Assembly (NCBI GenBank): GCA_964430475.1
Contig: CAYSEQ010000002.1
Span: 7,706-71,705, forward strand
From: an uncultured Gammaproteobacteria bacterium
Lineage (GTDB): Bacteria; Patescibacteriota; Microgenomatia; UBA8517
DNA: 64,000 nt
Direction: 5' to 3'
How positions within the stretch are numbered: position 1 is the first letter of the stretch; every line of letters starts with the position of its first letter. Position numbers and translations under genes: made by a program. Below are positions 50,341-63,135 of the stretch, piece by piece. The notes under the pieces are model-generated. The model was not told where the DNA came from. It worked only from the letters and a program-made list of their open reading frames with translations, and searched no databases.

Positions 50341-50894
50341 TGCATAGAAATAAATCTTCTTATATAGTTGAAACCTCTATACCTGGTCTTTTGGTTATCA
50401 AAAAGCCTACTTTTAATGATAAAAGAGGTTTTTTTAGAGAAGTGTTTCGTTTAAAGGAGTTAGCGGAGTGTGGTGTTGAGTTTAAACCCGTTCAGATGAA
50501 CCATTCATTTTCTCAGCCTAGAGTGATAAGAGGACTTCATGCCGAAAATTGGAATAAACTAGTTTATCCAATAAGTGGAAAAATGTTTGCTGCAGTTGTA
50601 GATATTAGACCTGAGAAAAAAAGTTTTGCCAAGGTTGAGACATTCATTTTTGACGAAAGAGATCCATTTGGGCTATTTATTAGCAAGGGTTTGGCAAATT
50701 CAATATGTGTAATCGGTGATGTAGGGGTTCATTACATTTATCTTGTAGACGCCTATTATGATGGTAAAGATACGAGGGCTATTTCGTGGGATGATCCAGA
50801 TTTGTCTATTGATTGGCCTGTTAAAAATCCAATATTATCAGATAGGGACAAGAATAATCCGAGGTTAAGGGACATCTTTCCTGAAAAATTTTAA
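50340..50894 (+). CDS. rmlC: dTDP-4-dehydrorhamnose 3,5-epimerase
   Basis: …FNDKRGFFREVF…, …RGLHAE… cupin motifs. The ATG overlaps the rmlB TAA by 1 nt. Confidence 0.85.
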   Translation: MHRNKSSYIVETSIPGLLVIKKPTFNDKRGFFREVFRLKELAECGVEFKPVQMNHSFSQPRVIRGLHAENWNKLVYPISGKMFAAVVDIRPEKKSFAKVETFIFDERDPFGLFISKGLANSICVIGDVGVHYIYLVDAYYDGKDTRAISWDDPDLSIDWPVKNPILSDRDKNNPRLRDIFPEKF

Positions 50895-50899
50895 AAAGT

Positions 50900-51811
50900 A
50901 TGAGAGGTCTAACATTGGTAATTGGTTCAGAGGGTTTGGTGGGATCGCGATTTGTGGAAATATCTGAAAATAGAAGCGCATTTATACTTCCAAGACAGGT
51001 GGAACTAGATATAACAAAATTCTCAGAAATTAAGGCTGTGATCTCTTCATATAATTTTACAAGTGTGGTGAATTTTGCCGCTTTTACAGATGTTTCTAAA
51101 GCAGAGGAACAAAGGGGAGATAAAAATGCCGAATGTTGGCAAGTAAATGTTGAGGGTGTGAAAAACTTGGTTGAGGCAGTAAAGCCTTATAAAACACGGA
51201 TCCATTTTATTCAAATTTCAACCGACATGGTATTTCCCGGAACGAAGGACGATCCAGGACCTTATCTTGAGAATCATCCTCTGGATCATGATCTAAGTCA
51301 ACTTTCATGGTACGGTTATACCAAGGCGGAAGCCGAGAAAATAATTCGGAATGAATTGGGTTTATTTTCGACAGTGGTAAGAATTAGCTATCCTGTCAGA
51401 GCAAGGTTTGATGCAAAACTTGACTATATTCGAAAGATTCTAAATCTATTTGATGAAGGGAAACTCTACCCTATGTTTTCTGATCAGCAGATTTCTATTA
51501 GCTTTATAGATGAAGTGTGCAAAGCTTTGGATATTATTATTTCACAGAATCATAGAGGCACTTTTCATGTTAGTTCAAGAGATACAACCACACCCTATGA
51601 ATTAGCATCTTATGTTTTAGAAAAATTAAGAGGAGTAAAAGAAGTTGTTATGCCAACCACACTCGATCAATTTTTGCTTCAGGGGAATAACCCTCTACGT
51701 TATCCCAAATATGGTGGTTTGAGTGTTTCTATTACACAGCATAAATTAGGGGTAACCTTCAGCTCTTGGAGAGAAATAGTGGATAAAATAATTACTCAAG
51801 GTCTAAACTAA
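50900..51811 (+). CDS. rmlD: dTDP-4-dehydrorhamnose reductase
   Basis: …LVIGSEGLVGSRF… Rossmann motif, YGYTKAEAE catalytic YxxxK. 303 aa. Confidence 0.8.
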   Translation: MRGLTLVIGSEGLVGSRFVEISENRSAFILPRQVELDITKFSEIKAVISSYNFTSVVNFAAFTDVSKAEEQRGDKNAECWQVNVEGVKNLVEAVKPYKTRIHFIQISTDMVFPGTKDDPGPYLENHPLDHDLSQLSWYGYTKAEAEKIIRNELGLFSTVVRISYPVRARFDAKLDYIRKILNLFDEGKLYPMFSDQQISISFIDEVCKALDIIISQNHRGTFHVSSRDTTTPYELASYVLEKLRGVKEVVMPTTLDQFLLQGNNPLRYPKYGGLSVSITQHKLGVTFSSWREIVDKIITQGLN

Positions 51812-51959
51812 TCCCCTGAGCTTGATATTGAATTGATCCTTTTGTAAAATACTTTAACCTAGATTAAATTTCACTGCCTCATAAGTTTTAAGATTTCTCA
51901 CAAATTTTAATAAAAAATCTTATTTAGTTGATCTTTTCTGCATTATCTAAATTCTAAAG

Positions 51960-54900
51960 ATGAGTGATTTGGAAATAATTGTACCTATTAGTGAGGAGGT
52001 TAGTATTAGTAAAATTGAAGAATTTTACCAGAGATTAGATTTTTCTTTGGTATCCGCTGGAATAGATTACAAAGTAATTTTTGTAGACATTTCATCTAAA
52101 GATTCCGTGAAAGATATTGTTCGTCACCTCACTAATAGTCACTTAAGTTTTCCTTATGAGTTTAATTTAGGAAAGAATAATCTAATTTATCACGCAAGTT
52201 TACATAAGAAGAAAGCAAATTCTAGAAATGGCAAGATAGAACTTTTTTTAAACAAAGTAAAAGAGAATGGGGTGTCTCAAATATTAGAAGCATTTAAGTC
52301 AACAACTTCCCCATATCTTGCCTTGATTGACAGCAATTCTCAGTACCCTCTAGAGGCTATAGCTAAAATGTATTCGCTTCTTAAAGATTATGATGTAGTT
52401 GTTCCTAAAGTTAAAAAATATACTACACCTACATTTCAGCCAAAATTTACTACTAAATTATATCGCTTTTTTAAGGCAAAGGTGTTTAAAAAGTCGGATA
52501 TGGATATTCAGTTCGATCTTGGACTTTTCAGAAGAGACCTTGTCGAAATTCTGTATGAGGTTGGAATAGAAGAACAACATAATTTGGGCTTAGCCCTACT
52601 TCTTACAGCCCAAAAAGTTGGTATGAAAATAGGTTCGGTAGATGAAGAGTTTCAGGGAAGAAAGGAAAATACTTCGATTTTAAATTTTCTCAAGTCATCT
52701 CTAAAATCAAGGTCTGAAAATACAAACTCCATTGTCAATCCTACATATCAAAAATTTAATAAAAATGGCAAAGTTTTTTACAAAGGTAAAGAATTTATCA
52801 CTTACACCGATCTGCCTTTTGGTCTTTCAGCTATAAAAGTATTAACCCTATGGCAAAAAATTTTTTTACTTAGTTTTATTTATTTTTTGCTTTTTGGGTT
52901 TTTTTTAAACATCTCTTATACTTTAGTTTTAATTTTTGCATTTTTTACGATTTTATATTTTTCAGATTTGGTATTTACAATTTTTATTCTTTATAAAAGT
53001 GTGTCTTCTTCACCTGAGATTAGGTTTAAAAAAATAGAGCTTCAGAATCTTGAGGAAAAAAATCTACCTATTTATAGCGTTATCTGCCCATTGTACAAAG
53101 AGGTAGAAGTTTTACCAGATTTCATTGGTGCCATAAGCAAGATAGATTGGCCAAAGGATAAGCTTGATGTAATTTTGATTTTAGAAGAAGATGACTATGA
53201 AACAAGAACCGCACTTAAGGATTTTAGCCTTCCTGAGTATTTTAGAATTTTAGTTGTTCCAGATTCGCTACCCAAGACAAAGCCAAAGGCTTGCAACTTT
53301 GGCCTTATGCATGCAAGGGGAGAATATTTAGTAATTTACGATGCAGAAGATAGACCCGAGCCGCTTCAATTGAAAAAAGCTTATTTAGCATTTCAAAGGG
53401 TTGGGCAGGATGTGGTTTGCCTTCAATCAAAACTAAATTATTATAATTCAGATCAAAATTTACTTACTAAACTTTTTACAGCGGAGTATTCGTTGTGGTT
53501 TGATTTAATTCTTCCAGGTTTACAGTCAATAAATACTATTATTCCGCTTGGAGGTACAAGCAACCACTTTAGGGTAGATGCATTGTGTAAATTAAGAGGT
53601 TGGGATCCTTTCAATGTTACCGAAGATTGCGATTTGGGTGTCAGAATTTTTAAAAGTGGTTATAAAACTGCCATTATTGATTCCACAACATTTGAGGAAG
53701 CAAATAGTAATGTCAAAAGTTGGATCAGGCAGCGCTCACGCTGGATTAAAGGTTATATTCAAACCTATCTGGTGCACACTAGGAACCCGTTGGATTTTGT
53801 TAGGAAACACAAATTTCATGCGTTACTTTTTCACTTGATTATCGGTGCTAGGACGGTTTTTGTCATTCTAAATCCGATTCTTTGGATTCAAACCTTATCT
53901 TACTTTCTTTTCCATGATATTTTTGGTCCAATTATTGAATCTTTCTATCCTGCACCCATTTATTATTTTGCTGTAGTTTGTCTAGTGTTTGGGAATTTTT
54001 TATACCTTTACAACTTCATGATTGGTTGCGCAAAAAGAAGGTATTGGTACTTGGTAAAGTATATGTTTTTTACACCATTTTATTGGTTAATGTCCAGCAT
54101 CTCAGCTTTGATCGCCTTTTATCAATTAGTTAAAAAACCTTACTTTTGGGAAAAAACTCAACACGGTTTACATTTAGGTATTCTTGATAGGCAAATCTTT
54201 AGTCCATTTACAGAGCTTACTCCTAAAAGTAACATTCTTAATCCTTTTAGATTCCTTAAGTTTATTTTCATAGTTGCAAAGAAAAATTTTTTAGATTTTG
54301 CCTATTTGTTCGATGATCTTAAGATTTCTTATTATCTTAAGGAAGGTAGGATCAAGATTTTGATATTTAACTGGCGGGACATTAAACATAAATGGTCAGG
54401 AGGGGCGGAGGTATATGTTCATAACTTAGCCAAAGAGTGGGTTAAAAGGGGTCACAAAGTAACTATTTTTTGCGGTTGGGATGGTGAGGGTAGAAGGGAC
54501 GAGATTATTGATGGCGTAAAGGTTATAAGACGAGGTGGTTTTTACACTGTTTATCTTTTTGCTTTTTTGTATTATATTTTCAAATTTAGGGGAATTTTTG
54601 ATGTTGTTATAGATAGCGAGAATGGCATTCCATTTTTCTCTCCCCTTTTTGTTAGGATACCTAGTATTTTATTAATCTATCATGTACATCAGGAAATTTT
54701 TAGAAAGTATCTCCCTTTTCCGTTGGCTAATTTGGCAAGTTTTCTAGAATCAAGATTAGTTCCTCTTGTCTATAAAAAATCTTCTGTGGTAACCATATCG
54801 CAGTCTTCGAAAAACGAAATTGTTCAGCGAGGTTGGATTGACGAGGAGAGAATCAGCATAATATACCCCGGTACTGATAAAAAACTTTTTGTACAGTCTC

Positions 54901-55496
54901 CTAAAACGGAGTATCCTTCTTTTATATATTTAGGCAGGCTTAAACCATGGAAGCGCGTAGATGTTGCAATTAAGGCTTTTTCTTTAATTTCTAAAAAATT
55001 TCCTGAAGCAAGATTTACTGTTGCAGGTTTTGGAGAAAGTTTGCCAAGTTTAGTAAAGCTTGTCAGAGATTTGGGTCTAAAAGATCAAGTTGATTTTATA
55101 GGTGAGGCTCCAGAGGATAAAAAAGCCTTGCTTTTTTCTAAAGCTTGGGCTGCGATTCAACCGTCGTTATTTGAAGGATTTGGTATTACCGTGATTGAAG
55201 CAAATGCTTCTGGTACATGCGTTATCGCATCGGATACTTCCGGACTGCGGGATTCAGTTGTAAATGCTAAGACAGGGATCCTTGTCCCAGTAGATGATAT
55301 TGAAAAGCTAAGCCAGGCTATGGAAAGGATTATCGTTGATTCTCAATTACGTGAGAGTCTATCAAATGCAGCGAGAATCTGGGCAAAAAATTTTGATTGG
55401 GAAGTTTCTGCAAAGAAGTTTGAGGAGATTATAAAGAAAGTGGTCTTTATAAGTCAGGTTCTACCTGAGTATAGCTTTATCGGCATCCGTGTCTAA
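51960..55496 (+). CDS. Tri-domain membrane glycosyltransferase (1178 aa): GtrB/DPM1-like GT2 domain, multi-TM processive GT2 (cellulose/chitin/PNAG-synthase-like) and C-terminal GT4 domain
   Basis: Domain 1 …LEIIVPISEE…DYDVVVPKVKK…. Domain 2 …YDAED…, …TEDCDLGVRI… and …QRSRWIKG… (D,D,TED,QxxRW) between TM blocks. Domain 3 …EGFGITVIEANASGTCVIASD… (GT4 E-x7-E). Confidence 0.8.
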   Translation: MSDLEIIVPISEEVSISKIEEFYQRLDFSLVSAGIDYKVIFVDISSKDSVKDIVRHLTNSHLSFPYEFNLGKNNLIYHASLHKKKANSRNGKIELFLNKVKENGVSQILEAFKSTTSPYLALIDSNSQYPLEAIAKMYSLLKDYDVVVPKVKKYTTPTFQPKFTTKLYRFFKAKVFKKSDMDIQFDLGLFRRDLVEILYEVGIEEQHNLGLALLLTAQKVGMKIGSVDEEFQGRKENTSILNFLKSSLKSRSENTNSIVNPTYQKFNKNGKVFYKGKEFITYTDLPFGLSAIKVLTLWQKIFLLSFIYFLLFGFFLNISYTLVLIFAFFTILYFSDLVFTIFILYKSVSSSPEIRFKKIELQNLEEKNLPIYSVICPLYKEVEVLPDFIGAISKIDWPKDKLDVILILEEDDYETRTALKDFSLPEYFRILVVPDSLPKTKPKACNFGLMHARGEYLVIYDAEDRPEPLQLKKAYLAFQRVGQDVVCLQSKLNYYNSDQNLLTKLFTAEYSLWFDLILPGLQSINTIIPLGGTSNHFRVDALCKLRGWDPFNVTEDCDLGVRIFKSGYKTAIIDSTTFEEANSNVKSWIRQRSRWIKGYIQTYLVHTRNPLDFVRKHKFHALLFHLIIGARTVFVILNPILWIQTLSYFLFHDIFGPIIESFYPAPIYYFAVVCLVFGNFLYLYNFMIGCAKRRYWYLVKYMFFTPFYWLMSSISALIAFYQLVKKPYFWEKTQHGLHLGILDRQIFSPFTELTPKSNILNPFRFLKFIFIVAKKNFLDFAYLFDDLKISYYLKEGRIKILIFNWRDIKHKWSGGAEVYVHNLAKEWVKRGHKVTIFCGWDGEGRRDEIIDGVKVIRRGGFYTVYLFAFLYYIFKFRGIFDVVIDSENGIPFFSPLFVRIPSILLIYHVHQEIFRKYLPFPLANLASFLESRLVPLVYKKSSVVTISQSSKNEIVQRGWIDEERISIIYPGTDKKLFVQSPKTEYPSFIYLGRLKPWKRVDVAIKAFSLISKKFPEARFTVAGFGESLPSLVKLVRDLGLKDQVDFIGEAPEDKKALLFSKAWAAIQPSLFEGFGITVIEANASGTCVIASDTSGLRDSVVNAKTGILVPVDDIEKLSQAMERIIVDSQLRESLSNAARIWAKNFDWEVSAKKFEEIIKKVVFISQVLPEYSFIGIRV

Positions 55497-57402
55497 AATG
55501 AAAATTCTTTTTTCAAATTATGACGATATAAAAAATCCTTACTACGGAGGAGGCGGAGCTTTTGCGATACATGAAGTGGCAAAAAGGCTTGCAAAGAAGC
55601 ATTTAGTAAAAGTTGTAACTGGTAGTTATCCTAATGCCAAGGATGAGATTATAGATGATGTTTTTTACAAAAGAATAGGACCTTCTTTGGTAGGTCCGAG
55701 AATTGGCCAAATCTTATATCATCTGTTTCTACCGATCTTTATTAGGAAAGAGGAATTTGATATTCTCTTTGAAAGCTTTACACCGCCGCATTCAACCTCA
55801 TTCACACCTATTTTTACAAGAAAACCTGTCGTGGGTATTGCTCACATGCTGGCATCTGAGGATATGCAAAGGAAGTACAAGTTACCTTTTGGCTTGGTTG
55901 AAAAAATTGGACTTAAATTTTATAAGGATATAATTGTTGTTAATCCCGAGATTAAAAAGGACATATTAAAAGCGAACCTTAAGGCTAGAGTAAAAGTTAT
56001 ACCAAATGGGGTCGATATACCTAAAAAGAGAAAAGTTAATTCAAAAAAAGAACACATACTCTTTATAGGCAGAGTTGAAGTAAATCAAAAGGGATTAGAT
56101 CTATTGTTGGAAGCTTTCAGGAAAGTTTTATCTAGCAAAACAAAGATAAGATTGGTGATTGCAGGAGGAGGTTTAGAGAAAGAAATAAAATCTTTAAAGA
56201 AACAAGTTTCTTTATTGTCGCTTAACAAAAAAGTAAAAATATTGGGACGGGTTGAAGGGGCTTTAAAACAGAAAATCTTTGAAAAAGCATTTTTTGTTGT
56301 CATTCCCTCAAGATTTGAGACTTTTTCAAGAGTTGCCTTGGAAGCGTGTAGCTTTTCGCTTCCAGTGTTATGCTTTGACATCAAGGGCTTAAAATGGTTG
56401 CCTAAAAGTCTTTCTTTGAAGGTTAGACCTTTTGATGTTGATGAACTCTCCAAAGGTATATTAAAGCTTTATTCTGATAAGAAATTGAGAAAGAAGTTAT
56501 CAAGAGGTGCGTTCGAATTCTCTAAAAAGTTTAATTGGGAGGAAATTTCAAAGGAATATGAAGAATATGTTTATAAGTTTTACCCTTTTTCTAGAAAAGA
56601 AAGAAATTTTGAAAAAGTACTTAAAAGGATTATTTCGGGGAAAAAAGAATGTTTCTTTATTTCTCCTCATCTAGACGACGCTATTTTTTCAGTGGGGGGA
56701 ATAATTTCTTACCTTGCGGGTAGGACAAATGTGTACATCATAAATGTCTTTACCAAAGCCTCAAGAGGTCCTTATACACTATCTGCAAGAAGAGCAATTT
56801 TAGGTAAAGCTAAAGATGCCCAAGATCTTTATCGTATAAGAAAGATTGAAGATAAAAGGGTATTTGAGAGTTTGGGAGTAAAATCTTTGAATTTGGGATT
56901 TACTGAAGCTTTATATCGGAGAACTAATATCAGAAAGCTTAAAAAATTAACCATGTTTTTAGGAAAAGTTTTCCCGGAGTTTCTCTTTCTTTACCCAACT
57001 TATTGGTTTCATATAAATAGAGGTAAGATTCATCAAGAGGATAACGAACTAATTGAGAAAATTTCTAAGAAATTAAGAAAGCTTATTCCAAAAAGAAAAA
57101 AAGTTTTAATTTTTTGTCCTCTTGCAGACAACAGCCATGTTGATCATCTGTTGGTGAAGGAGGCTGTATGTAGGAATTTCAAGAATGTTTGGTTTTGGCA
57201 GGACTTGCCCTATCTAGCCGGTAAGGAATTTGAAATCTCTCAGAAATTTTCAGGTAGCCGTTACTTATTTAGGGTACATCCAGAGGTAAAAAAGCCGCTT
57301 ATATCTTTTTACAGATCTCAGCTTCCTAAAAGTTTAGAAAAGATGAAGTGTGAATTGTTTATGAATGAAAACGTCTGGATAGATTCCAAGAAAAATTTAT
57401 GA
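55489..57402 (+). CDS. Bifunctional GT4 glycosyltransferase / PIG-L (LmbE-like) N-acetylglucosaminyl deacetylase fusion
   Basis: N-terminal GT4 (…YYGGGGAFAIHEVAKRLAKKH…, E-x7-E region). C-terminal PIG-L motifs …FFISPHLDDAIFSVGGIIS… and …ADNSHVDHLLV…. Confidence 0.75.
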   Translation: MSKMKILFSNYDDIKNPYYGGGGAFAIHEVAKRLAKKHLVKVVTGSYPNAKDEIIDDVFYKRIGPSLVGPRIGQILYHLFLPIFIRKEEFDILFESFTPPHSTSFTPIFTRKPVVGIAHMLASEDMQRKYKLPFGLVEKIGLKFYKDIIVVNPEIKKDILKANLKARVKVIPNGVDIPKKRKVNSKKEHILFIGRVEVNQKGLDLLLEAFRKVLSSKTKIRLVIAGGGLEKEIKSLKKQVSLLSLNKKVKILGRVEGALKQKIFEKAFFVVIPSRFETFSRVALEACSFSLPVLCFDIKGLKWLPKSLSLKVRPFDVDELSKGILKLYSDKKLRKKLSRGAFEFSKKFNWEEISKEYEEYVYKFYPFSRKERNFEKVLKRIISGKKECFFISPHLDDAIFSVGGIISYLAGRTNVYIINVFTKASRGPYTLSARRAILGKAKDAQDLYRIRKIEDKRVFESLGVKSLNLGFTEALYRRTNIRKLKKLTMFLGKVFPEFLFLYPTYWFHINRGKIHQEDNELIEKISKKLRKLIPKRKKVLIFCPLADNSHVDHLLVKEAVCRNFKNVWFWQDLPYLAGKEFEISQKFSGSRYLFRVHPEVKKPLISFYRSQLPKSLEKMKCELFMNENVWIDSKKNL

Positions 57403-58484
57403 ATAATTTAGAGGTTCAAATAATTAAAAAAATAGACAAGGATTTTTTAAAGAAATGGTATAAGATTTGGAAAAATGCTTATAACCGTCAGTTTTATAAC
57501 TCTCCTGAATGGTTTATTTCAGCACTTAAGGTCTTTGAAGCGAAGGACTATTTAGTTTTTACAGTGTCTAAGGACTCTGAAGTAAAATTAATACTTCCTT
57601 TAATTGGAAAGAAATTTTTGGGGAGGAAAATTTATATGAGCCCTGGCGAAAAATTTTTGGATAAAACTACAATTCTTTTAAAAGATAAAGATTTTGATGT
57701 CTTGAAGGCAGTTTTTAAGAAGTTGGCAAATTTTGGAAATTTTTACTTAAGTGAAGTTGACGATTGGGTGAAAGAAGAGTTTGAAGAAACAAGAATTGGC
57801 GGTAAGACTTTTATTTCTTCAGAATCCTTTTATTTGCCTTTGGAAGAAGCATTTGAATTTTTATCCAAAAAACAAAAAAGTAAGATAAAGAATAAATATA
57901 TAAAAAATAAAAAAAGACTTACCTTTCTTCGTTTAAGAGGGGAAAAAATAATCAATCGCATTGATGATATTCTGAAAATTGATTACTTGAGTAGTAAGAG
58001 AGAAAAAAGCAGAGAAACTTTTTCTGACAAGAATTCAATTAGGTTATTAGAGATTATCTCCAAACATTCCAAGGAGAGTAAGCCGGATTTAAGCATATTA
58101 TATTTTGACCGTTTTCCGGTTGTTTTTAGCTTCGGAGTAATTTCCGATGGGGTCTACCATGCGAAGTACACCTCTTTTGTTAAAAAGTTTGCTTTTCTTT
58201 CACCCGGCAAACTCTTGCTTTACATGCTTTTACCTAAACTTAGGGCTGAAGGTGTAAAAATTTTTGACTTCTCGAGAGGAGACAGTACCTTGAAAAAGGA
58301 ATTTACTCCTTATTTTGAAAAATATTATGATATTTTTTACTCTAAAGATAAATTTTTAGCCCTTTTATTGCCAAATTTGATTCTTCTAAAAGATTTTATC
58401 ATTGGTCATGAAAAGCTTTATCAATTTTTACTTTTTATACGAAGGTATGTTAAACTTTTCGGCTCATTTTTGAAAATTTTTTAA
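57399..58484 (+). CDS. FemAB-like / CelD-like GNAT acyltransferase (Acetyltransf_6 family)
   Basis: …WYKIWKNAYNRQFYNSPEWF… N-terminal signature. ~360 aa two-lobed GNAT architecture. Confidence 0.55.
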   Translation: MNNLEVQIIKKIDKDFLKKWYKIWKNAYNRQFYNSPEWFISALKVFEAKDYLVFTVSKDSEVKLILPLIGKKFLGRKIYMSPGEKFLDKTTILLKDKDFDVLKAVFKKLANFGNFYLSEVDDWVKEEFEETRIGGKTFISSESFYLPLEEAFEFLSKKQKSKIKNKYIKNKKRLTFLRLRGEKIINRIDDILKIDYLSSKREKSRETFSDKNSIRLLEIISKHSKESKPDLSILYFDRFPVVFSFGVISDGVYHAKYTSFVKKFAFLSPGKLLLYMLLPKLRAEGVKIFDFSRGDSTLKKEFTPYFEKYYDIFYSKDKFLALLLPNLILLKDFIIGHEKLYQFLLFIRRYVKLFGSFLKIF

Positions 58485-58486
58485 CT

Positions 58487-60100
58487 ATGAAAAGGTATTT
58501 AAGTAATTTATTTTTAGTGTTTTTCTGTATGGCGATTCTCGTTCTCATTATAAGGGGTATTTCTGGAAATCCTAGCGAGGAAGACCTTAATAAAATGGAG
58601 TGGAAAGAAGAAGGACCTTTTGAACTTTCAAATGAAAGAGGAAGATTTGCACTTCTTTATTCCTGGATTGAAAATCATTCTTTGTATTTTTCTAAGAATT
58701 TAGCCCTTTTTGCTTCCCCGGATTTGGCGTATAAGGATGGGAAATATGTTTCTCTATTCAATCCCGGCGTTTCTTTTATGGCAATTCCAGGATACATGTT
58801 AGGTAAAATTTTAGGTATTTCACAAATATTTACATTCCTTATTATCTCACTTTTTGCTTCGTTGAATGTAGTTTTAGTGAAGAATATTTCCAGGAAAATT
58901 GGTGCGAGCGACAGAATCTCGACGATCGCTTCGTTAATCTTTCTTTTTGCCACACCCGCTTTAGTTTACGCAACCAGCTTTTACCAACATCACATCTCTA
59001 CATTTTTATTGCTTCTAAGTATATATCTACTTTTGGAAAAAGTAGGTATTTTTACCCTTTTTCTAGTCTTTTTTTTATATGGAGTTTCGATAACAGTTGA
59101 TTATCCAAATGTCTTTTTAATGTTTCCTATTGTAGTTTATTCAATGAGCAGGTTTTTTATTATAGTGAAAACCTCAGCGAACTTCCAAATAGTATTTGAC
59201 CTTAAAAAGTTGATTTCTCTTACAGGGGTATTAGTGCCACTACTTTTTTTGTTTTGGTTTAATAAAGTCTCATATGGCTCGGCATTATCAATATCAGGTG
59301 CAGTTCAAAGAGTAACGAAAATAGATCCACAGGGAAATCCGATCAGAGATGAAAATATAGCTAATATTGCAAGTGATACCATAGACCGAGGTTTAAGTTT
59401 TTTTAAAACAAGAAATATACCTAGGGGGATTTATACTCTTATTCTAAGCGAGGATAGGGGGGTAATCTTTTTTGCTCCGGTTCTTATTTTTTCTCTAATC
59501 GGAATACTAGAATTTGGAGAAAAAAGAAGAAAGATCTTTTTACTTCTGGCTTCCATTATTTGTATTAATGTTCTGCTTTATAGTATGTGGGGAGACCCAT
59601 GGGGTGGTTGGTCTTTTGGCTCGCGTTATCTTATACCAAGTTATGCGATAGTCTCTATCTTTATTTCCAGACTTTTTATGAAGCTAAAAGGGGACAAACT
59701 ATTTCTGGGAGTATTTTTTTTAGCTTCAGTTGTGTCCATCTTTATCAATTTGCTAGGGGCAATAACTTCCAAGGCTAATCCTCCCAAAGTTGAAGCAGAG
59801 AGCCTTACCGCGTTGTCAGGAATTGAGCAAAAGTATACTATTGAGCGAAACCTAGATTTTCTATTCGAAAAGGGCACGAAGTCTTTTGTTTACGAAAAAT
59901 ATTTAAAGGATTTTCTTACTCCATGGGAATATTATTTTTTGGTCTCTTTCCTGATTTTGATACCCTATGGAATCTATTTCTTTAAAATATCGCGTTTGGC
60001 AAAATCTCCAGTTTTTGAGTTGGTCTTGGTAAAGAACAAGGGTTTGAATGACCTAAAACTAGAATTAAGACTTTTTAGTAAGGAAAAGCTTTTTAAGTAA
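58487..60100 (+). CDS. Polytopic membrane protein, GT-C-fold glycosyltransferase-like (PMT/ArnT/GT39/GT83-like)
   Basis: More than 10 predicted TM helices, with loops between them. Confidence 0.5.
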   Translation: MKRYLSNLFLVFFCMAILVLIIRGISGNPSEEDLNKMEWKEEGPFELSNERGRFALLYSWIENHSLYFSKNLALFASPDLAYKDGKYVSLFNPGVSFMAIPGYMLGKILGISQIFTFLIISLFASLNVVLVKNISRKIGASDRISTIASLIFLFATPALVYATSFYQHHISTFLLLLSIYLLLEKVGIFTLFLVFFLYGVSITVDYPNVFLMFPIVVYSMSRFFIIVKTSANFQIVFDLKKLISLTGVLVPLLFLFWFNKVSYGSALSISGAVQRVTKIDPQGNPIRDENIANIASDTIDRGLSFFKTRNIPRGIYTLILSEDRGVIFFAPVLIFSLIGILEFGEKRRKIFLLLASIICINVLLYSMWGDPWGGWSFGSRYLIPSYAIVSIFISRLFMKLKGDKLFLGVFFLASVVSIFINLLGAITSKANPPKVEAESLTALSGIEQKYTIERNLDFLFEKGTKSFVYEKYLKDFLTPWEYYFLVSFLILIPYGIYFFKISRLAKSPVFELVLVKNKGLNDLKLELRLFSKEKLFK

Positions 60101-60116
60101 GGTACTGCTTTTAAAA

Positions 60117-61745
60117 ATGGAAATTTTTGTTAAAGATTTTACTTTCTTTTTAATTTTAGACAGGAGAAAAATTTTCAATTTTTTCAAAAAAATTGAAAAA
60201 ATCTTGCCTTTGGTGATTGTTGTCTTTCTTTTTGTACTGTCCCTTTTTGCATCTTTCTTGTTTTACAATAATGGACTCTCTCTTGCTTACAATGATGCTC
60301 GATCACACTTAAATATTGCAAGAAGGGTTGTTGAAGGGCTAAAAACAGGTGCTGCACAGCTTGGGAGTGTTTGGCTTCCCTTACCCCATGTCCTTATGTT
60401 ACCAACTATCTGGAATGACTTTTTTTGGCATTCCGGAGCCTCGGGTACACTAGTTTCTCTAGTCTCATTTATTTTAACTGGTATTTTTATTTACAGATTC
60501 CTAGAAAAGTTAAAGGTAAGAATTTTTGGGAGGATTTTTGGTGTTTTGGTTTTCAGCACAAATCTAAATATTTTATATTTGACTTCTACGGCAATGACCG
60601 AGATGCTACTTTTAGCAACTCAAACTTTAAGTGTTTATTATCTTGTAATCTGGGCGAGAAAGGAAAGAATGCTAGACTTGCTAAAAAGTGCTTTTTGGGT
60701 AATGTTAGCTACACTTACGCGTTATGATGGTTGGTTTCTTTTTGTCTTTTGTACTTTTCTTATTGGGATTATTGGTTTAAGAAAAAGGGTGTTAAAAGAG
60801 GTAGAGGGATATCTATTTTTCTTTTTAACTTTGGCTGGATTTGGCATCTTTTTGTGGTTTTTGTGGAATCTGGTAATTTTTAAAGATCCCCTTTATTTTG
60901 TTTATGGCCCTTATTCTGCTTATGCACAACAGTTGGGCTTAGAAAAAGCAGGGGAGTTACTGACGAAGGGTAATCTTTTAGCATCTTTGAAAACATATTT
61001 TTACGCAATCTTTTATAACCTCTATACAATACCAGTGTTTATCGGTTTTAGTGGTATTTTTATCTTGTACTTTGACAAGAGTTTGAAAAAAAGTGTGAGA
61101 CTTGCTACCTTAGCCTTGTTAGCCCCTATCCTTTTTAACATTATTGCTCTTTATTTAGGACATTCAGTTTTGTTCCTTCCAGAAGTAGTTGGGAAGACTT
61201 GGTTTAATGTAAGGTATGGGATGTTGGCTGCACCTGCAATTTGTATAGGAATAGGTTTTATCGTGGATAGACTAAGAAGATATTCACCAATATTAATTGG
61301 TTTAATTCTTTTTACATTGTTTTTTGCGTTTTTGGGTTTTGACGCAGTGACAATTGATGATGCACTTTATGGAGCAAGTCAAAAAAATGTAAAAGAAGTA
61401 TCCTCATGGCTTAGAGGAAATGTATCCAAAGAACCGGGTTTTGTTTTGATTTCTGCGGCAAGTCATGATGCGATCATTTTTTCCTCTGGATTGCCGATGA
61501 AACGTTTTATTCATGAGGGTACCGGAGATTATTGGAAGCTTGCAGTTGAGAATCCCAACAGGTGGGTTAAATGGATAGTTATGCGAACTTACGATATGAA
61601 TGATTTAACTTACAAGGAAGTGCATGATGCAAGTGGGTTTAAATATTTTGAACTTGTGGAGCATTATCCTTTTGCTGACATCTATCAACTAAAAAAAGAT
61701 TATTGGAGTGAGGTTGTGACAACACCGGTTTTGTCAAGAAAATAA
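60117..61745 (+). CDS. Second polytopic GT-C-like membrane protein
   Basis: About 10 TM helices in the N-terminal two-thirds plus a C-terminal soluble domain. Adjacent to and co-oriented with the 58487 gene. Confidence 0.5.
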   Translation: MEIFVKDFTFFLILDRRKIFNFFKKIEKILPLVIVVFLFVLSLFASFLFYNNGLSLAYNDARSHLNIARRVVEGLKTGAAQLGSVWLPLPHVLMLPTIWNDFFWHSGASGTLVSLVSFILTGIFIYRFLEKLKVRIFGRIFGVLVFSTNLNILYLTSTAMTEMLLLATQTLSVYYLVIWARKERMLDLLKSAFWVMLATLTRYDGWFLFVFCTFLIGIIGLRKRVLKEVEGYLFFFLTLAGFGIFLWFLWNLVIFKDPLYFVYGPYSAYAQQLGLEKAGELLTKGNLLASLKTYFYAIFYNLYTIPVFIGFSGIFILYFDKSLKKSVRLATLALLAPILFNIIALYLGHSVLFLPEVVGKTWFNVRYGMLAAPAICIGIGFIVDRLRRYSPILIGLILFTLFFAFLGFDAVTIDDALYGASQKNVKEVSSWLRGNVSKEPGFVLISAASHDAIIFSSGLPMKRFIHEGTGDYWKLAVENPNRWVKWIVMRTYDMNDLTYKEVHDASGFKYFELVEHYPFADIYQLKKDYWSEVVTTPVLSRK

Positions 61746-61821
61746 TTTAAGGGATAATTTTGATAAAAAGAATATTAGTATTCCGAAGGTTTTTAGTTAA
61801 GTGGTATTTTAAGCTAGAAAC

Positions 61822-63135
61822 TTGAAAATGCTGAACCCTTTTCTTAAAAATTCTAACAACCTTAAGATGTTTTTTATATTCCTAAAAAACTTTAGAAAAA
61901 TTTGGCTATCTCTTTTAGCGATTTTTTTGGGAATGTCTTTTTTACTAAAAAGTGTCTATGCAAATACAACATATTGGGAGATTCAGTCCATAGATACGAT
62001 GAAATTTTCACGGGATCTAGCAAGAGAAAAAAAGGCTGATTTAAGTTTCGATAGAGAAATTGAGGACCAAATTTCCCAAATTGCTTTTTTGGGTGCAACC
62101 CATGTTGTTCTGGGAACTCCCTACGATGAAGAATTTCTACCTTTTTTAAAACGCTGGGTTGTGATGGCAAGAAAGTATGGTCTAAAGATCTGGTTTAGGG
62201 GAAACTTTTCTGGCTGGGAAGGATGGTTTGGTTATCCAAGGATTACGCCTGAGCAGCATATTGAAGAAACTCAAGAATTTATCCTAAAAAACCCAGATTT
62301 ATTTGAAAATGGGGATATTTTCACTTCTTGTACAGAGTGCGAAAATGGTCGCGTCTTTGACCCTTTTAGAGCTGACCAATTGTTGGAATTTCGTAAATTT
62401 CTGATTGAAGAATATAAGGTTGCAAAGAGAGCATTTGAAAGTTTGGGGAAAGATGTCAAAACAAATTTCTATCCAATGAATCTAGATGTGGCGAAATTGG
62501 TAATGAATAAAGATACTCTCAATTCTTTGGAAAAAGTTGTAGTTTTAGATCATTATGTTGATACACCCCAAAAATTAGTTAATGATATTGACGAGATTCA
62601 TGTTCAAACAAATGCCAAGATAGTTTTGGGAGAGATAGGTGTTCCGATTCCAGATATTCATGGCGAGATAAGTGAAGGAAGACAAGCCGAGTGGCTAAGC
62701 GAGACACTTGAACTTTTGTCTTACAAAGATTTCCTTTTAGGTTTAAATTATTGGGTGAATAAGGGTGGGTCTACTGAGATTTTTTATAAAGATGGTAGAT
62801 TAAAACCTGCGGGTTTTGTGGTTAAAGATTACTTTAAGCCAGTGATTTACGAAGGCCGCATAGTTAACCAATTTGGTATTCCGGTTAAAAACGCTGAAGT
62901 TAATTTTCTCTCAAAAAAAATCATTAGCGATTCAAAAGGGCATTTTCTTTTGCCTTTAGTTCCTTCCGCGCAGAAAATATCTATCCTTGCGGATGGTTAT
63001 CAAAAAACTGAAGTCCAAGTTAAGGACTTGCCCAAAAAAGATATTGTTTTAGTTAAGGACAACCTTTTTTTCAAGATTTTTAGTCTTATTCATGTTTTCT
63101 TATTGCAAGCTTTTTCGAAGGCTTTCCAAGAATAG
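61822..63135 (+). CDS. Secreted TIM-barrel glycosidase-like protein (GH5/GH113-like) with C-terminal carboxypeptidase-regulatory-like domain
   Basis: N-terminal TM/signal. …KIVLGEIGVP… candidate nucleophile region. C-terminal …GRIVNQFGIPVKNAEVNF… CarbopepD_reg-like motif. Confidence 0.4.
   Translation: MKMLNPFLKNSNNLKMFFIFLKNFRKIWLSLLAIFLGMSFLLKSVYANTTYWEIQSIDTMKFSRDLAREKKADLSFDREIEDQISQIAFLGATHVVLGTPYDEEFLPFLKRWVVMARKYGLKIWFRGNFSGWEGWFGYPRITPEQHIEETQEFILKNPDLFENGDIFTSCTECENGRVFDPFRADQLLEFRKFLIEEYKVAKRAFESLGKDVKTNFYPMNLDVAKLVMNKDTLNSLEKVVVLDHYVDTPQKLVNDIDEIHVQTNAKIVLGEIGVPIPDIHGEISEGRQAEWLSETLELLSYKDFLLGLNYWVNKGGSTEIFYKDGRLKPAGFVVKDYFKPVIYEGRIVNQFGIPVKNAEVNFLSKKIISDSKGHFLLPLVPSAQKISILADGYQKTEVQVKDLPKKDIVLVKDNLFFKIFSLIHVFLLQAFSKAFQE

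What the first reader, a model, noticed from the sequence alone, without database searches (positions are those of the whole stretch)
55489..58484. GT4-PIG-L deacetylase fusion followed by a CelD/FemAB-like GNAT: a MshA/MshB/MshD-like trio
The 637-aa protein fuses a retaining GT4 to a PIG-L/LmbE deacetylase (…SPHLDDAIF…, …HVDHLL…). The next gene, overlapping by 4 nt, is a FemAB/CelD-like acyltransferase. The same logic makes N-acylated glucosaminides: GT4 installs GlcNAc, PIG-L exposes the amine and a GNAT/Fem-like enzyme acylates or aminoacylates it. That is the scheme of mycothiol and bacillithiol biosynthesis (MshA/BshA, MshB/BshB, MshD). Here it is physically fused and embedded in a polysaccharide locus. 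Possible products are a GlcN-containing repeat unit, a glycolipid head group or an aminoacyl-glucosamine modification of the rhamnose glycan.
Basis: inference. Interest (0 to 1): 0.6.

Follow-up and report, generated by a model that had tools for sequence, protein, structure and literature searches.

The report
Sugar re-acylation module in CPR glycan operon
A Patescibacteria (CPR) operon encodes a sugar-adding enzyme fused to a de-acetylase, followed by a FemX-like transferase; together they probably turn an N-acetyl-glucosamine in a cell-surface glycan into an amino-acid-decorated glucosamine, and nobody has characterised this widespread cassette.

Summary
ORF 55498-57402 is a GT4 glycosyltransferase fused to a PIG-L/LmbE deacetylase with all catalytic motifs. 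It overlaps by ATGA with a 361-aa Acetyltransf_6 protein.

The order "install HexNAc, remove the acetyl, re-acylate the amine" is strongly supported by comparative evidence.
- The three activities occur in every fusion combination: GT4-PIGL, GT2-GT4-PIGL, PIGL-AcT6, AcT6-GT4 and PIGL-AcT6-membrane protein.
- In 48 cassette loci from different species, the GT4 is adjacent or fused to PIG-L in 41.

It is not a mycothiol or bacillithiol pathway.
- MshA/BshA model cut-offs are missed by far.
- The nearest solved PIG-L relative is the teicoplanin deacetylase Orf2*.
- The window has no Cys ligase.
- The module sits in a conserved Patescibacteria cassette: rmlABCD, a multi-GT, GT4, PIG-L, 0-2 AcT6, two GT-C-like membrane proteins and a single-pass protein.

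The AcT6 model (pLDDT 90) best matches aminoacyl-tRNA-dependent tandem-GNAT transferases: FemX, MprF, and Sbb17/Sba18, which glycylate an amino sugar. It does not match MshD.

Best reading: aminoacyl-tRNA-dependent N-aminoacylation of a membrane-bound GlcN residue. This step is inferred, not shown. AcT6 is present in only 18/48 cassettes, so it is an accessory. I rate this a new variant of a known kind.

The parts
48257..49336 (+). Sugar-1-phosphate nucleotidyltransferase with a C-terminal left-handed beta-helix domain (RmlA-like). It is the first gene of the operon after RtcB.
   Evidence: Pfam NTP_transferase E 1.7e-40 plus LbH_EIF2B. The same gene sits at the same position in L004.
49291..51811 (+). 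rmlB (49291-50340), rmlC (50277-50894) and rmlD (50900-51811): dTDP-rhamnose synthesis.
   Evidence: Pfam GDP_Man_Dehyd/Epimerase, dTDP_sugar_isom and RmlD_sub_bind. Conserved upstream of the cassette in L001-L004 and L009.
51960..55496 (+). 1178-aa multi-domain glycosyltransferase. It has GT2 (about aa 83-195), a membrane-embedded PgaC/CelA-like GT2 (aa 353-725, hydrophobic segments near 301-319 and 619-690) and GT4 (aa 814-1140).
   Evidence: Pfam. NCBIfam weak PgaC_IcaA/CelA hits. Hydropathy. A homologous multi-GT ending in the same GT4 subtype lies upstream in most of the 48 cassette loci listed (not counted).
55498..56604 (+). GT4 (retaining GT-B) domain of the fusion protein, inferred to be a HexNAc (GlcNAc) transferase. 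The EX7E motif ETFSRVALE lies at aa 277-285.
   Evidence: Pfam Glyco_transf_4 plus Glycos_transf_1. EX7E motif. The same GT4 subtype is immediately upstream of (38) or fused to (3) PIG-L in 41/48 cassette loci. No hydrophobic segments.
56626..57402 (+). PIG-L/LmbE (CE14) de-N-acetylase domain of the fusion protein. SPHLDD lies at nt 56662-56679 (H394, D396, D397). HVDH lies at nt 57136-57147 (H550, D552, H553).
   Evidence: Pfam PIG-L, 46.7 bits. Best solved relatives are 6iiy and teicoplanin Orf2* 2x9l, E about 1e-13, with motifs aligned. Motifs are conserved in all 27 homologues, and 30 columns are invariant in A4.
57399..58484 (+). 361-aa Acetyltransf_6 tandem-GNAT (FemX/MprF-like) transferase, the predicted N-(amino)acyltransferase. 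Invariant K299 lies at nt 58293-58295. A basic helix spans aa 154-175. A hydrophobic/basic C-terminal helical extension spans aa 318-360.
   Evidence: Pfam PF13480. AF2 pLDDT 89.9. Foldseek top hits are aa-tRNA-dependent transferases. K299 is invariant in 157/157. Fused to PIG-L in 18 representatives and to GT4 in 3.
58487..60100 (+). 537-aa polytopic membrane protein ('MEM1'), probably GT-C fold. Conserved E46, R53 and D79 lie in the first external loop region.
   Evidence: About 10 hydrophobic segments. NCBIfam LA_3751/LA_3752 putative GT, E 1.3e-11 but below cut-off. A low-confidence AF2 model whose top 23 Foldseek hits are all GT-C enzymes. Fused C-terminally to PIGL-AcT6 in P0180 and P0210 and to PIG-L in L085.
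60117..61745 (+). 542-aa polytopic membrane protein ('MEM2'), a distant paralogue of MEM1, GT-C-like. It always follows MEM1.
   Evidence: Pfam PMT_2 E 1.5e-4, below cut-off. NCBIfam LA_3751/2 weak. At least 8 hydrophobic segments. The MEM1-MEM2 pair is present in 46 of the 48 cassette loci.
61822..63135 (+). 437-aa protein with one N-terminal hydrophobic segment and a C-terminal Ig-like (CarboxypepD_reg-like) domain. It is the conserved last gene of the cassette; its role is unknown.
   Evidence: Pfam weak CarboxypepD_reg/CooC_C. Hydropathy. A gene of 415-431 aa at the same position in L001, L004, L005 and L007.

Best explanation
The two genes are the 'N-re-acylation module' of a conserved Patescibacteria (CPR) cell-surface glycoconjugate operon.

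**Proposed steps**
1. The cytoplasmic GT4 domain transfers an N-acetyl-hexosamine, most likely alpha-GlcNAc from UDP-GlcNAc. The acceptor is a membrane-bound intermediate (a lipid or lipid-linked oligosaccharide) that the upstream GT2-GT2-GT4 enzyme and the dTDP-rhamnose genes help to build.
2. The fused zinc-dependent PIG-L domain removes the acetyl group, giving a free GlcN amine.
3. The overlapping gene encodes a FemX/MprF-type tandem-GNAT transferase. It is probably held at the membrane by its C-terminal helices. It acylates that amine, most likely with an amino acid taken from aminoacyl-tRNA.
4. The modified intermediate is then handled by the two downstream GT-C-like membrane proteins on the outer face of the membrane.

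**Shown here**
- Domain identities.
- Intact catalytic motifs.
- Conserved synteny and multiple independent gene fusions that link GT4, PIG-L, AcT6 and the first membrane protein.

**Inferred**
- The sugar identity.
- The acceptor.
- The aminoacyl-tRNA donor.
- The GT-C assignment.
- The final product.
For: **Domains and motifs**
- Pfam matches are above cut-off for every domain.
- PIG-L H394/D396/D397 and H550/D552/H553 align to Orf2* H16/D18/D19 and H161/D163/H164. They are conserved in 27/27 homologues, apart from one NVDH variant.
- The GT4 domain has an EX7E motif.

**Functional linkage by fusion**
- GT4-PIGL, GT2-GT4-PIGL, GT4-PIGL-GT2 and PIGL-GT2-GT4.
- GT2-AcT6-GT4 followed by a stand-alone PIG-L.
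- 18 PIGL-AcT6 fusions and 3 AcT6-GT4 fusions among 159 AcT6 representatives.
- PIGL-AcT6-MEM1 triple fusions, 34-47% identical to the window's 537-aa protein.
- A PIGL-MEM1 fusion.

**Synteny**
- The operon is identical in relatives at 47-53% identity.
- Of the 80 best-matching PIG-L loci kept from the species-representative genome collection, 48 carry the cassette. GT4 is adjacent or fused in 41 of these and AcT6 is present in 18.
- Of 7 AcT6-seeded metagenome loci, 5 have PIG-L directly upstream. One has a CE4 deacetylase instead.

**Aminoacyl-tRNA donor**
- The AF2 model has pLDDT 89.9.
- The top 25 Foldseek PDB hits are all aminoacyl-tRNA-dependent tandem GNATs. They are MprF/aaPGS, FemX (TM 0.64-0.67), and Sbb17/Sba18 bound to the amino sugar streptothrisamine. 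Acetyl-CoA tandem GNATs rank lower (TM 0.4-0.5).
- A Lys (K299) in a G-x4-K-x2-F-T motif is invariant in 157/157 sequences. A conserved basic inter-domain helix has a median net charge of +5.
- Seven cassettes carry two divergent AcT6 paralogues (about 25% identity, both keeping the Lys motif). That fits Fem-like stepwise addition.

**Membrane location**
- The fusion protein has no hydrophobic segments. AcT6 has a hydrophobic C-terminal extension, like the extension HfsK needs for membrane association (PMC5362036).

**Established chemistry**
- All characterised PIG-L/LmbE enzymes act on GlcNAc glycosides made by a preceding GT: PIG-A/PIG-L, MshA/MshB, BshA/BshB, teicoplanin GtfA/Orf2*. This is my knowledge of the families.
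Against: - No biochemical datum exists for any member.
- Donor-sugar specificity of GT4 enzymes cannot be read from sequence.
- AcT6 has no sequence-level match to FemX, MprF or Sbb17. The link is fold-level only, at about 11% identity.
- I could not superpose structures, so the equivalence of K299 to FemX Lys305 rests on the motif alone.
- From my recollection, not from reading the paper retrieved, at least one PF13480 member (Brucella BspF) is reported to use acyl-CoA.
- The closest solved PIG-L relative, Orf2*, feeds a fatty-acyl transferase, not an aminoacyl transferase.
- 30/48 cassettes lack AcT6. In those the slot holds GT2, GrpB or kinase-like genes. The free amine may therefore be the usual end product, or the amine may not be the only thing modified.
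- The GT-C assignment rests on sub-threshold profile hits and a pLDDT-58 model.
- No initiating phosphoglycosyl transferase or flippase was found in the window.
Confidence: 0.55

Rival explanations
1. The first two steps are the same (GT4 adds GlcNAc, PIG-L deacetylates). The Acetyltransf_6 enzyme then uses an acyl-CoA or acyl-ACP donor to attach a non-acetyl acyl group (fatty acyl, hydroxyacyl, succinyl and the like) to the amine. The result would be an N-acyl-glucosamine glycolipid or lipoglycan, as in teicoplanin lipidation or lipid A (LpxC/LpxD).
For: - The PIG-L domain's nearest solved relatives are Orf2* and Dbv21. Their product is N-acylated with a fatty acid (family knowledge).
- Tandem GNATs that use acyl-CoA also appear in the Foldseek list: 2wpw and VipF.
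- The donor of HfsK, the closest polysaccharide-associated relative by description, is unknown (PMC5362036).
- From my memory, PF13480 includes an acyl-CoA-using effector.
Against: - All 25 best structural matches are aa-tRNA-dependent enzymes. CoA-dependent tandem GNATs score clearly worse, TM 0.4-0.5 against 0.6-0.67.
- Two divergent tandem paralogues occur in 7 cassettes. These are hard to explain if one acylation caps the only amine.
- The invariant Lys and the basic helix fit the Fem/aaPGS pattern.
- CPR genomes generally lack fatty-acid synthesis (general knowledge, not tested here).
Confidence: 0.22
2. The essential product is free glucosamine, a cationic amine on the surface glycan, as in the Arn/Lgm/NaxD lipid A modifications or PNAG. 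The AcT6 gene would be an unrelated or loosely coupled accessory, for instance a peptidoglycan-bridge Fem transferase or a protein acyltransferase that happens to sit in the operon.
For: - 30/48 cassettes have GT4 and PIG-L but no AcT6.
- The triple-fusion locus L005/L006 goes straight from PIG-L to the membrane proteins.
- The best fold match by TM-score is the peptidoglycan enzyme FemX.
Against: - Direct PIGL-AcT6 fusions in 18 representatives, AcT6-GT4 fusions and PIGL-AcT6-MEM1 fusions argue for action on the same substrate.
- When present, AcT6 usually sits 0-106 nt after PIG-L.
- 5/7 AcT6-seeded loci have PIG-L upstream, and one has a CE4 deacetylase.
- No mur or peptidoglycan genes are adjacent.
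Confidence: 0.13
3. One reading: a low-molecular-weight thiol (mycothiol/bacillithiol-like) or other soluble GlcN-conjugate pathway, with the trio standing in for MshA/MshB/MshD.
For: - GT4 followed by PIG-L is the MshA/MshB and BshA/BshB order.
- There are weak NCBIfam hits to the BshA and MshA models.
Against: - The scores are 57 and 51 bits, against equivalog cut-offs of 274 and 462.
- No PDB-level similarity to MshB or BshB.
- No Cys ligase in the window.
- AcT6 is not MshD-like in sequence or among the best fold hits.
- The module is fused to and always accompanied by polytopic membrane proteins and multi-GT enzymes.
Confidence: 0.03

Closest known systems
Teicoplanin/A40926 sugar tailoring: a GT adds GlcNAc, the Orf2*/Dbv21 PIG-L deacetylase removes the acetyl, and an N-acyltransferase re-acylates
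   Same: - Identical three-step logic on a glycoside-bound GlcNAc.
- Orf2* is the nearest solved relative of the window's PIG-L domain (E about 1e-13).
- The ISPHLDDA and H-x-D-H motifs are shared, along with W-x-D-x-P-Y (WQDLPY here, WEDLPY in Orf2*).
   Different: - The acceptor there is a soluble peptide aglycone, the GT is GT1, and the acyltransferase is not an Acetyltransf_6/FemX-type enzyme (my knowledge).
- Here the GT is GT4, it is fused to the deacetylase, and the context is a membrane glycoconjugate operon.
FemX/FemAB, MprF (aa-PG synthase) and Sbb17/Sba18/Orf11 (BD-12 pathway): aminoacyl-tRNA-dependent tandem-GNAT transferases
   Same: - Best structural matches of the AcT6 model.
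- Tandem GNAT architecture, a conserved Lys near the C-terminus of domain 2, and a basic helix.
- Orf11/Sba18 aminoacylates an amino-sugar amine using Gly-tRNA (PMC12945691). That is the same chemistry proposed here.
   Different: - No detectable sequence similarity: about 11% identity, and no Pfam FemAB or PDB sequence hit.
- The acceptors differ: a peptidoglycan precursor, phosphatidylglycerol, or an antibiotic intermediate.
- tRNA use by the CPR enzyme is untested.
Caulobacter holdfast HfsH (deacetylase) plus HfsK (FemX-like tandem GNAT)
   Same: - A polysaccharide pathway in which a FemX-like N-acyltransferase is proposed to acylate amines exposed by a deacetylase.
- HfsK needs a short C-terminal extension for membrane association (PMC5362036). 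The window protein has an analogous C-terminal helical extension.
   Different: - HfsH is a CE4 enzyme, not PIG-L.
- The HfsK donor and acceptor are unknown.
- HfsK is regulated by c-di-GMP.
- I could not compare the sequences directly.
Pseudomonas aeruginosa LPS core operon wapO-wapH-mig14-dnpA and the GalN(L-Ala) residue
   Same: - A glycosyltransferase, a PIG-L family deacetylase (DnpA) and Mig-14 lie in one operon (PMC13552734).
- From my recollection, Mig-14 belongs to the same GNAT superfamily.
[quoted passage not shown]
   Different: - This is Gram-negative LPS, the genes are not fused, and the Pfam family is Mig-14 rather than Acetyltransf_6.
- None of the steps after WaaG is demonstrated.
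- Relatedness of Mig-14 to the window protein was not tested here.
GPI anchor (PIG-A GT4, PIG-L, then GT-C mannosyltransferases), and the Arn/Lgm/NaxD pathways (lipid-linked amino sugar is deacylated, then a GT-C transfers it)
   Same: - A cytoplasmic-face GT, then a de-N-acylase acting on a lipid-bound sugar, then GT-C enzymes on the other face.
- The MEM1 model's hits include ArnT and GPI mannosyltransferase I.
   Different: - None of those pathways re-acylates the amine with a Fem-like enzyme.
- The lipid carrier and acceptor here are unknown.
- The GT-C assignment is weak.
Mycothiol/bacillithiol biosynthesis (MshA/B/C/D, BshA/B/C)
   Same: A GT4 followed by a PIG-L family deacetylase acting on a GlcNAc glycoside.
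   Different: - Equivalog thresholds are not met.
- There is no Cys ligase.
- The third enzyme is of a different family and would act on a different amine.
- The context is a membrane glycan operon.

Membership tests
PIG-L/LmbE deacetylases (Pfam PF02585, CAZy CE14) | Profile match above the curated threshold | tested here: met
   46.7 bits against a cut-off of 28.2, E 5.8e-12, residues 390-561.
PIG-L/LmbE deacetylases (Pfam PF02585, CAZy CE14) | Zinc ligands and catalytic residues: N-terminal (A/S)PHxDD and a later HxDH | tested here: met
   SPHLDD (H394/D396/D397) and HVDH (H550/D552/H553) align with Orf2* H16/D18/D19 and H161/D163/H164. They are conserved in 27 homologues.
PIG-L/LmbE deacetylases (Pfam PF02585, CAZy CE14) | De-N-acetylation of a GlcNAc glycoside | not testable with these tools
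   Needs an enzyme assay.
GT4 retaining glycosyltransferases | Two Rossmann-like halves (Glyco_transf_4 plus Glycos_transf_1) and an EX7E motif | tested here: met
   Pfam E 2.6e-14 and 5.6e-28. ETFSRVALE at aa 277-285.
MshA / BshA (NCBIfam equivalogs TIGR03449, TIGR03999) | Score at or above the equivalog cut-off | tested here: not met
   50.9 bits against 462.5, and 57.2 bits against 273.7. Many unrelated GT4 models score as well or better.
MshB / BshB | Closer to MshB/BshB than to other PIG-L subfamilies | tested here: not met
   phmmer against all PDB sequences finds Orf2*, Dbv21, 6iiy and diacetylchitobiose deacetylases. No chain named as MshB or BshB appears at E<=10.
MshD (acetyl-CoA:Cys-GlcN-Ins acetyltransferase) | Sequence or best-fold similarity to MshD, with a Cys ligase supplying the substrate | tested here: not met
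   No NCBIfam hit for the 361-aa protein. The top 50 Foldseek hits list no entry described as MshD. No Cys-ligase-like gene in the window.
Acetyltransf_6 (PF13480; CelD/BcsL, HfsK-like) | Profile match above the curated threshold | tested here: met
   43.5 bits against 22. All 13 aligned homologues match, best E 1.3e-16.
FemABX-type aminoacyl-tRNA-dependent transferases | Tandem GNAT fold | tested here: met
   AF2 pLDDT 89.9, pTM 0.83. FemX TM 0.64-0.67, MprF and Sbb17/Sba18 E about 1e-11.
FemABX-type aminoacyl-tRNA-dependent transferases | Sequence membership (Pfam FemAB PF02388 or a PDB sequence hit) | tested here: not met
   No FemAB hit even at E<=10. No PDB sequence hit with a single sequence or a profile.
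FemABX-type aminoacyl-tRNA-dependent transferases | Catalytic Lys equivalent to FemX(Wv) Lys305 | tested here: inconclusive
   K299 is invariant in 157/157 in a G-x4-K-x2-F-T motif at the end of GNAT domain 2. No structural superposition was possible.
FemABX-type aminoacyl-tRNA-dependent transferases | Use of aminoacyl-tRNA as donor | not testable with these tools
   Needs an in vitro assay with charged tRNA.
GT-C glycosyltransferases (for the two downstream membrane proteins) | Polytopic GT-C fold with an acidic residue in the first external loop | tested here: inconclusive
   - Sub-threshold PMT_2 and LA_3751/2 hits.
- Hydropathy segments: about 10 in the 537-aa protein, at least 8 in the 542-aa protein.
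- A pLDDT-58 model whose top 23 hits are GT-C, but with E of only 1e-3 to 0.5.
- Invariant D79 and R53.

The most novel reading that the evidence does not exclude
The Acetyltransf_6 enzymes of this cassette would be a new, widespread class of aminoacyl-tRNA-dependent transferases. They would build amino-acid or short-peptide side chains on glucosamine residues of a lipid-linked surface glycan. Cassettes with two paralogues would add stepwise, as FemX/A/B do. CPR bacteria would then have a peptide-decorated ('Fem-ylated') envelope glycoconjugate assembled by a dedicated pair of GT-C enzymes. The same deacetylase-plus-tandem-GNAT logic would explain unsolved N-aminoacyl amino sugars elsewhere, for example P. 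aeruginosa core GalN(L-Ala) via DnpA and Mig-14, and Caulobacter holdfast via HfsH and HfsK.
Probability: 0.4. Interest if true: 0.8.

Novelty: new variant of a known kind. Interest (0 to 1): 0.6.

Why it matters
**Scale.** Patescibacteria/CPR make up a large share of bacterial diversity, and almost nothing is known about their envelope glycans. This cassette turns up in 48 of the 80 best-matching PIG-L loci from different species (185 relatives were found). The record titles name the Woese-, Ames-, Levy-, Roizman-, Shapiro-, Moran-, Giovannoni-, Dojka-, Pacei- and Saccharibacteria lineages. It is probably a major surface structure of organisms that live attached to other cells.

**A testable pathway.** The fusions give an unusually clear, experimentally testable order of steps: HexNAc, then HexN, then N-(amino)acyl-HexN.

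**If the donor is aminoacyl-tRNA.** tRNA-dependent, non-ribosomal aminoacylation would extend from peptidoglycan, lipids and antibiotics to surface polysaccharides.

**A lead for two open problems.** The result would suggest a candidate enzyme type for the L-alanyl transferase of the P. aeruginosa LPS core and for the function of HfsK.

Tried and rejected
**Sequence-level links that were not found**
- AcT6 against solved Fem, MprF or MshD structures: no hit with a single sequence or a profile.
- Pfam scans of 13 homologues at E<=10 give only Acetyltransf_6.
- NCBIfam has no hit for AcT6, so it matches none of NCBI's curated family models.

**Searches that gave little**
- The word-indexed homologue search for AcT6 found only 7-13 proteins. 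The exhaustive profile search was needed to see the family: 249 representatives at E<=1e-30 and 5219 at E<=1e-3.
- The metagenome scan seeded with AcT6 returned only 7 loci.

The 3-sequence model is poor, pLDDT 58.
- The profile of that family finds nothing in the PDB by sequence.

**Readings rejected**
- An anti-phage 'conflict-system GT4' reading, suggested by the PF20706 hit. PADLOC gives no hit for any cassette protein, and PF20706 simply overlaps the stronger generic GT4 matches.
- A mycothiol/bacillithiol pathway (see the rival explanations).
- A peptidoglycan Fem transferase, because of the fusions to PIG-L, GT4 and MEM1.

**Other negative results**
- No tRNA genes or Rfam families in the window.
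- Literature searches for the cassette in CPR found nothing.

Full report

Yes. The window has a run of tightly packed + strand ORFs from 46688 to 63135.
- The ORF read from GTG 55489 translates to 637 aa and contains FFISPHLDDAIFSVGG and NSHVDHLLVKE.
- Pfam places Glyco_transf_4 at residues 21-177, Glycos_transf_1 at 177-341 and PIG-L at 390-561. All are above the curated cut-offs.
- The next ORF (57399-58484, 361 aa) matches Acetyltransf_6/PF13480 at 194-299.
- The two genes share ATGA at 57399-57402.
- One correction: the start is almost certainly ATG 55498, giving 634 aa. That is the public gene call. It follows the upstream TAA by one base.

**2. Organism and conservation**

The window has no tRNA or Rfam hits. 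G+C is about 35%.
- The named close homologues of the fusion protein come from Microgenomates/Woesebacteria-type Patescibacteria, i.e. CPR.
- 27 cluster representatives at 39-55% identity carry GT4+PIG-L in one polypeptide.
- In all of them the [SA]PH[LPF]DD and HxDH motifs are intact. The one exception has NVDH.

**3. PIG-L domain**

- Against all PDB sequences, the best relatives are '6iiy deacetylase' and the teicoplanin pseudoaglycone deacetylase Orf2* (2x9l, E about 1e-13), then Dbv21.
- The alignment puts H394/D396/D397 on Orf2* H16/D18/D19, and H550/D552/H553 on H161/D163/H164.
- PDB entry 2xad differs from 2x9l by Asn at position 164, the residue aligned with H553.
- No chain named as MshB or BshB is detected.
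- The domain therefore looks like a catalytically competent CE14 enzyme of the Orf2*-like subfamily.

**4. Acetyltransf_6 protein**

- It has no NCBIfam hit and no sequence hit in the PDB, even with a profile.
- An AlphaFold2 model built from 13 homologues is confident: pLDDT 89.9, pTM 0.83. It shows two alpha/beta GNAT-like halves plus C-terminal helices at 318-360.
- In Foldseek against the PDB, the 25 best hits are all aminoacyl-tRNA-dependent tandem-GNAT transferases:
  - the MprF/aminoacyl-phosphatidylglycerol synthase catalytic domain;
  - Weissella FemX, with the best TM of 0.64-0.67;
  - Sbb17/Sba18, 'aminoacyl-tRNA-dependent peptide synthase', solved with the amino sugar streptothrisamine.
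- Acetyl-CoA tandem GNATs follow with a lower TM of 0.4-0.5.
- The review PMC12945691 describes this enzyme class, FemX Lys305, and Orf11, which glycylates streptothrisamine from Gly-tRNA.
- An exhaustive profile search shows a sizeable family: 249 representatives at E<=1e-30.
- Across 159 members, K299 (G-x4-K-x2-F-T) is invariant in 157/157. G294, S198, K200 and P269-G270-K271 are nearly invariant. The inter-domain helix at 154-175 (FLSKKQKSKIKNKYIKNKKRL) is consistently basic, with a median net charge of +5.
- Equating K299 with FemX Lys305, and the basic helix with the tRNA-binding helix of Fem/aaPGS enzymes, is inference. I could not superpose structures.

**5. Are the three activities functionally linked?**

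This is the strongest result.

*Fusions*
- GT4-PIGL.
- GT2-GT4-PIGL, GT4-PIGL-GT2 and PIGL-GT2-GT4.
- GT2-AcT6-GT4 (P0088), followed by a stand-alone PIG-L.
- 18 PIGL-AcT6 fusions and 3 AcT6-GT4 fusions among 159 AcT6 representatives.
- P0180 and P0210 are PIGL-AcT6 fused to a homologue of the window's next gene, the 537-aa membrane protein, at 34-47% identity.

*Synteny*
- Relatives at 47-53% identity have the same operon. Its order is RtcB, rmlABCD, a big GT2/GT4 protein, GT4-PIGL, AcT6, two membrane proteins of about 540 aa and a protein of about 415 aa.

*Wider sample*
- Searching species-representative genomes with the PIG-L domain gave 185 relatives. I analysed the best 80 loci with my own HMMs.
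- 48 loci carry the cassette, defined as PIG-L plus MEM1/MEM2.
- In 41 of these the same GT4 subtype is immediately upstream (38) or fused (3).
- AcT6 is present in 18. Seven of those have two copies. It usually lies 0-106 nt after PIG-L.
- The 32 non-cassette loci include Actinoplanes, other Actinomycetota and Chloroflexi, plus some Patescibacteria and cassette fragments on short contigs. Three or four of those fragments (L012, L030, L036, and a truncated PIGL-AcT6 ORF in L018) carry AcT6. The actinobacterial and Chloroflexi loci have none, apart from one weak partial hit (L079).

*Reciprocal test*
- Of 7 AcT6-seeded metagenome loci, 5 have PIG-L directly upstream.
- One is cut by the contig end.
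- One (L094) is a different exopolysaccharide locus that has a CE4 deacetylase instead.

*Tandem copies*
- The tandem AcT6 copies are divergent, at about 25% identity. Both keep the Lys motif.

**6. Surroundings**

- The 1178-aa upstream protein is GT2, then a membrane-embedded PgaC/CelA-like GT2, then GT4.
- The 537- and 542-aa proteins are polytopic. They give sub-threshold hits to PMT_2 and to the LA_3751/LA_3752 putative glycosyltransferase family.
- A 3-sequence AF2 model of the first one is poor (pLDDT 58, pTM 0.65). Its top 23 Foldseek hits are nevertheless all GT-C enzymes: ALG3, Pmt4, PglB, ArnT, AftB, STT3 and GPI mannosyltransferase I. The E-values are only 1e-3 to 0.5. I treat GT-C as probable, not established.
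- The last gene encodes a single-pass protein with an Ig-like domain.
- The fusion protein has no hydrophobic segment, and AcT6 has only the hydrophobic C-terminal helices.
- Because PIGL-AcT6 is fused to the N-terminus of the membrane protein in some species, the deacetylation and acylation very likely happen on a membrane-bound intermediate at the cytoplasmic face.
- The rest of the window has no Cys ligase, no Wzx/Wzy or ABC exporter and no initiating phosphoglycosyl transferase.
- No PADLOC defence model matches.

**7. Mechanism**

*Best model (confidence 0.55)*
1. GT4 adds GlcNAc.
2. PIG-L exposes the amine.
3. The Fem-like enzyme aminoacylates it from aminoacyl-tRNA.
4. GT-C enzymes then use or extend the product outside the membrane.

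*How firm each step is*
- Steps 1-2 rest on strong family precedent plus adjacency and fusion.
- The existence of a third, coupled acyl-transfer step rests on the fusions.
- The aminoacyl-tRNA donor rests on fold ranking, the invariant Lys, the basic helix and the Fem-like tandem paralogues.

*Main rival (0.22)*
- Acyl-CoA/ACP-dependent N-acylation, as in teicoplanin. This would fit the Orf2*-like PIG-L.

*A nuance*
- 30/48 cassettes lack AcT6.
- In these the slot holds small GT2 genes, GrpB-like nucleotidyltransferase-fold proteins, APH/choline-kinase-like proteins or a CE4-GrpB fusion.
- The GlcN amine, or the residue generally, therefore looks like a hot spot for lineage-specific decoration. 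Free GlcN may be the default product.

**8. Comparison with known systems**

The cut-offs are not met. There is no MshB/BshB-level similarity and no Cys ligase. MshD also acts on a different amine.
- Closer analogues:
  - teicoplanin tailoring, which has the same three steps and the nearest PIG-L relative;
  - Orf11/Sba18, aminoacyl-tRNA transfer to an amino-sugar amine;
  - Caulobacter HfsH/HfsK, where a FemX-like tandem GNAT with a membrane-targeting C-terminal extension is proposed to acylate amines exposed by a deacetylase (PMC5362036);
  - the P. aeruginosa core operon wapO-wapH-mig14-dnpA (PMC13552734). Its product contains GalN(L-Ala), and the alanyl transferase is explicitly unknown (PMC10579960).
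- The overall GT4, PIG-L, GT-C layout also recalls GPI-anchor assembly and the Arn/Lgm/NaxD lipid A amino-sugar pathways (my knowledge).
- I found no paper describing this CPR cassette. The searchable library is incomplete.

**9. Verdict**

- This is a new variant of a known kind. The deacetylate-and-re-acylate logic is familiar. Here it uses a fused GT4-PIG-L and a Fem-like transferase, inside a widespread, uncharacterised CPR surface-glycoconjugate cassette.
- Interest: 0.6.

Noticed in passing
window 3183-5263 (+): A YcaO cyclodehydratase gene (3183-4526) overlaps by 4 nt with a nitroreductase-family (dehydrogenase-like) gene (4523-5263). This is the enzyme pair of azol(in)e-type RiPP (TOMM) clusters, or of a ribosomal-protein-modifying YcaO. 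I did not look for a precursor peptide.
   Followed up: no
window 36225-43034 (+): Sortase (36225-36800), subtilase S8 with a fervidolysin-like prodomain (36830-38290), two ORFs with no Pfam hit, and a 966-aa DUF11-repeat protein (40134-43034). This looks like a sortase-dependent surface-protein or pilus module.
   Followed up: no
window 45611-48151 (+): RNaseH-like (PF04308), archease and RtcB RNA ligase lie directly upstream of the glycan operon. RtcB is also the upstream neighbour in relatives L001-L004, so this junction is conserved in these Microgenomates-type genomes.
   Followed up: partly
window 48257-49336 (+); L004 820-1899: The 'RmlA' of this operon is a 359-aa nucleotidyltransferase with a C-terminal left-handed beta-helix domain, like GlmU or archaeal bifunctional sugar-1-P nucleotidylyl/acetyltransferases. 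It might supply UDP-GlcNAc as well as dTDP-glucose. In L001 the equivalent gene is a plain 239-aa enzyme.
   Followed up: no
L009 9927-10505; L044 10668-11291; L045 10653-12347; L040 10736-11647; L034 11664-13022; L024 10734-11663; L015/L022/L035 PIG-L C-terminal extensions: In cassettes without Acetyltransf_6, the slot after PIG-L holds other candidate decorating enzymes. These are GrpB-like nucleotidyltransferase-fold proteins, APH/choline-kinase-like proteins, a CE4 deacetylase-GrpB fusion, and small GT2 enzymes of about 300 aa (sometimes fused to PIG-L). This suggests lineage-specific decoration at the same residue.
   Followed up: partly
L011, L016, L017, L021, L022, L029, L033 and others (genome contigs record titles): Many TPA-assembled MAGs titled 'uncultured Gammaproteobacteria', 'Pseudomonadales' or 'Bdellovibrionales' carry the complete CPR-type cassette at 37-48% identity to the window's PIG-L domain. 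The titles look like taxonomic mislabels of Patescibacteria bins. I did not verify this.
   Followed up: no
L060, L066, L067, L070, L082 (Actinoplanes/Paractinoplanes): Orf2*-like PIG-L genes in actinomycetes have a GT4-like gene convergently adjacent and no Acetyltransf_6. These are a non-CPR branch of the same PIG-L subfamily that also pairs with a GT4. Their context was not analysed further.
   Followed up: no
L094 4657-10975: A non-cassette polysaccharide locus in which the Acetyltransf_6 gene travels with a CE4 deacetylase, a carbamoyltransferase, a radical-SAM enzyme, GT2/GT4 genes and a methyltransferase. This is another deacetylase plus Fem-like pairing outside the PIG-L context.
   Followed up: partly
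window 17578-23060 (+): An alpha-glucan module: a glycogen-synthase-like GT4/GT5, GH57, GH15 glucoamylase-like and a ROK kinase.
   Followed up: no
window 63341-63976 (-); L004 15779-16780: A PGA_cap (CapA-like, poly-gamma-glutamate capsule synthesis family) gene lies convergent to the end of the cassette. The same arrangement is seen in L004.
   Followed up: no
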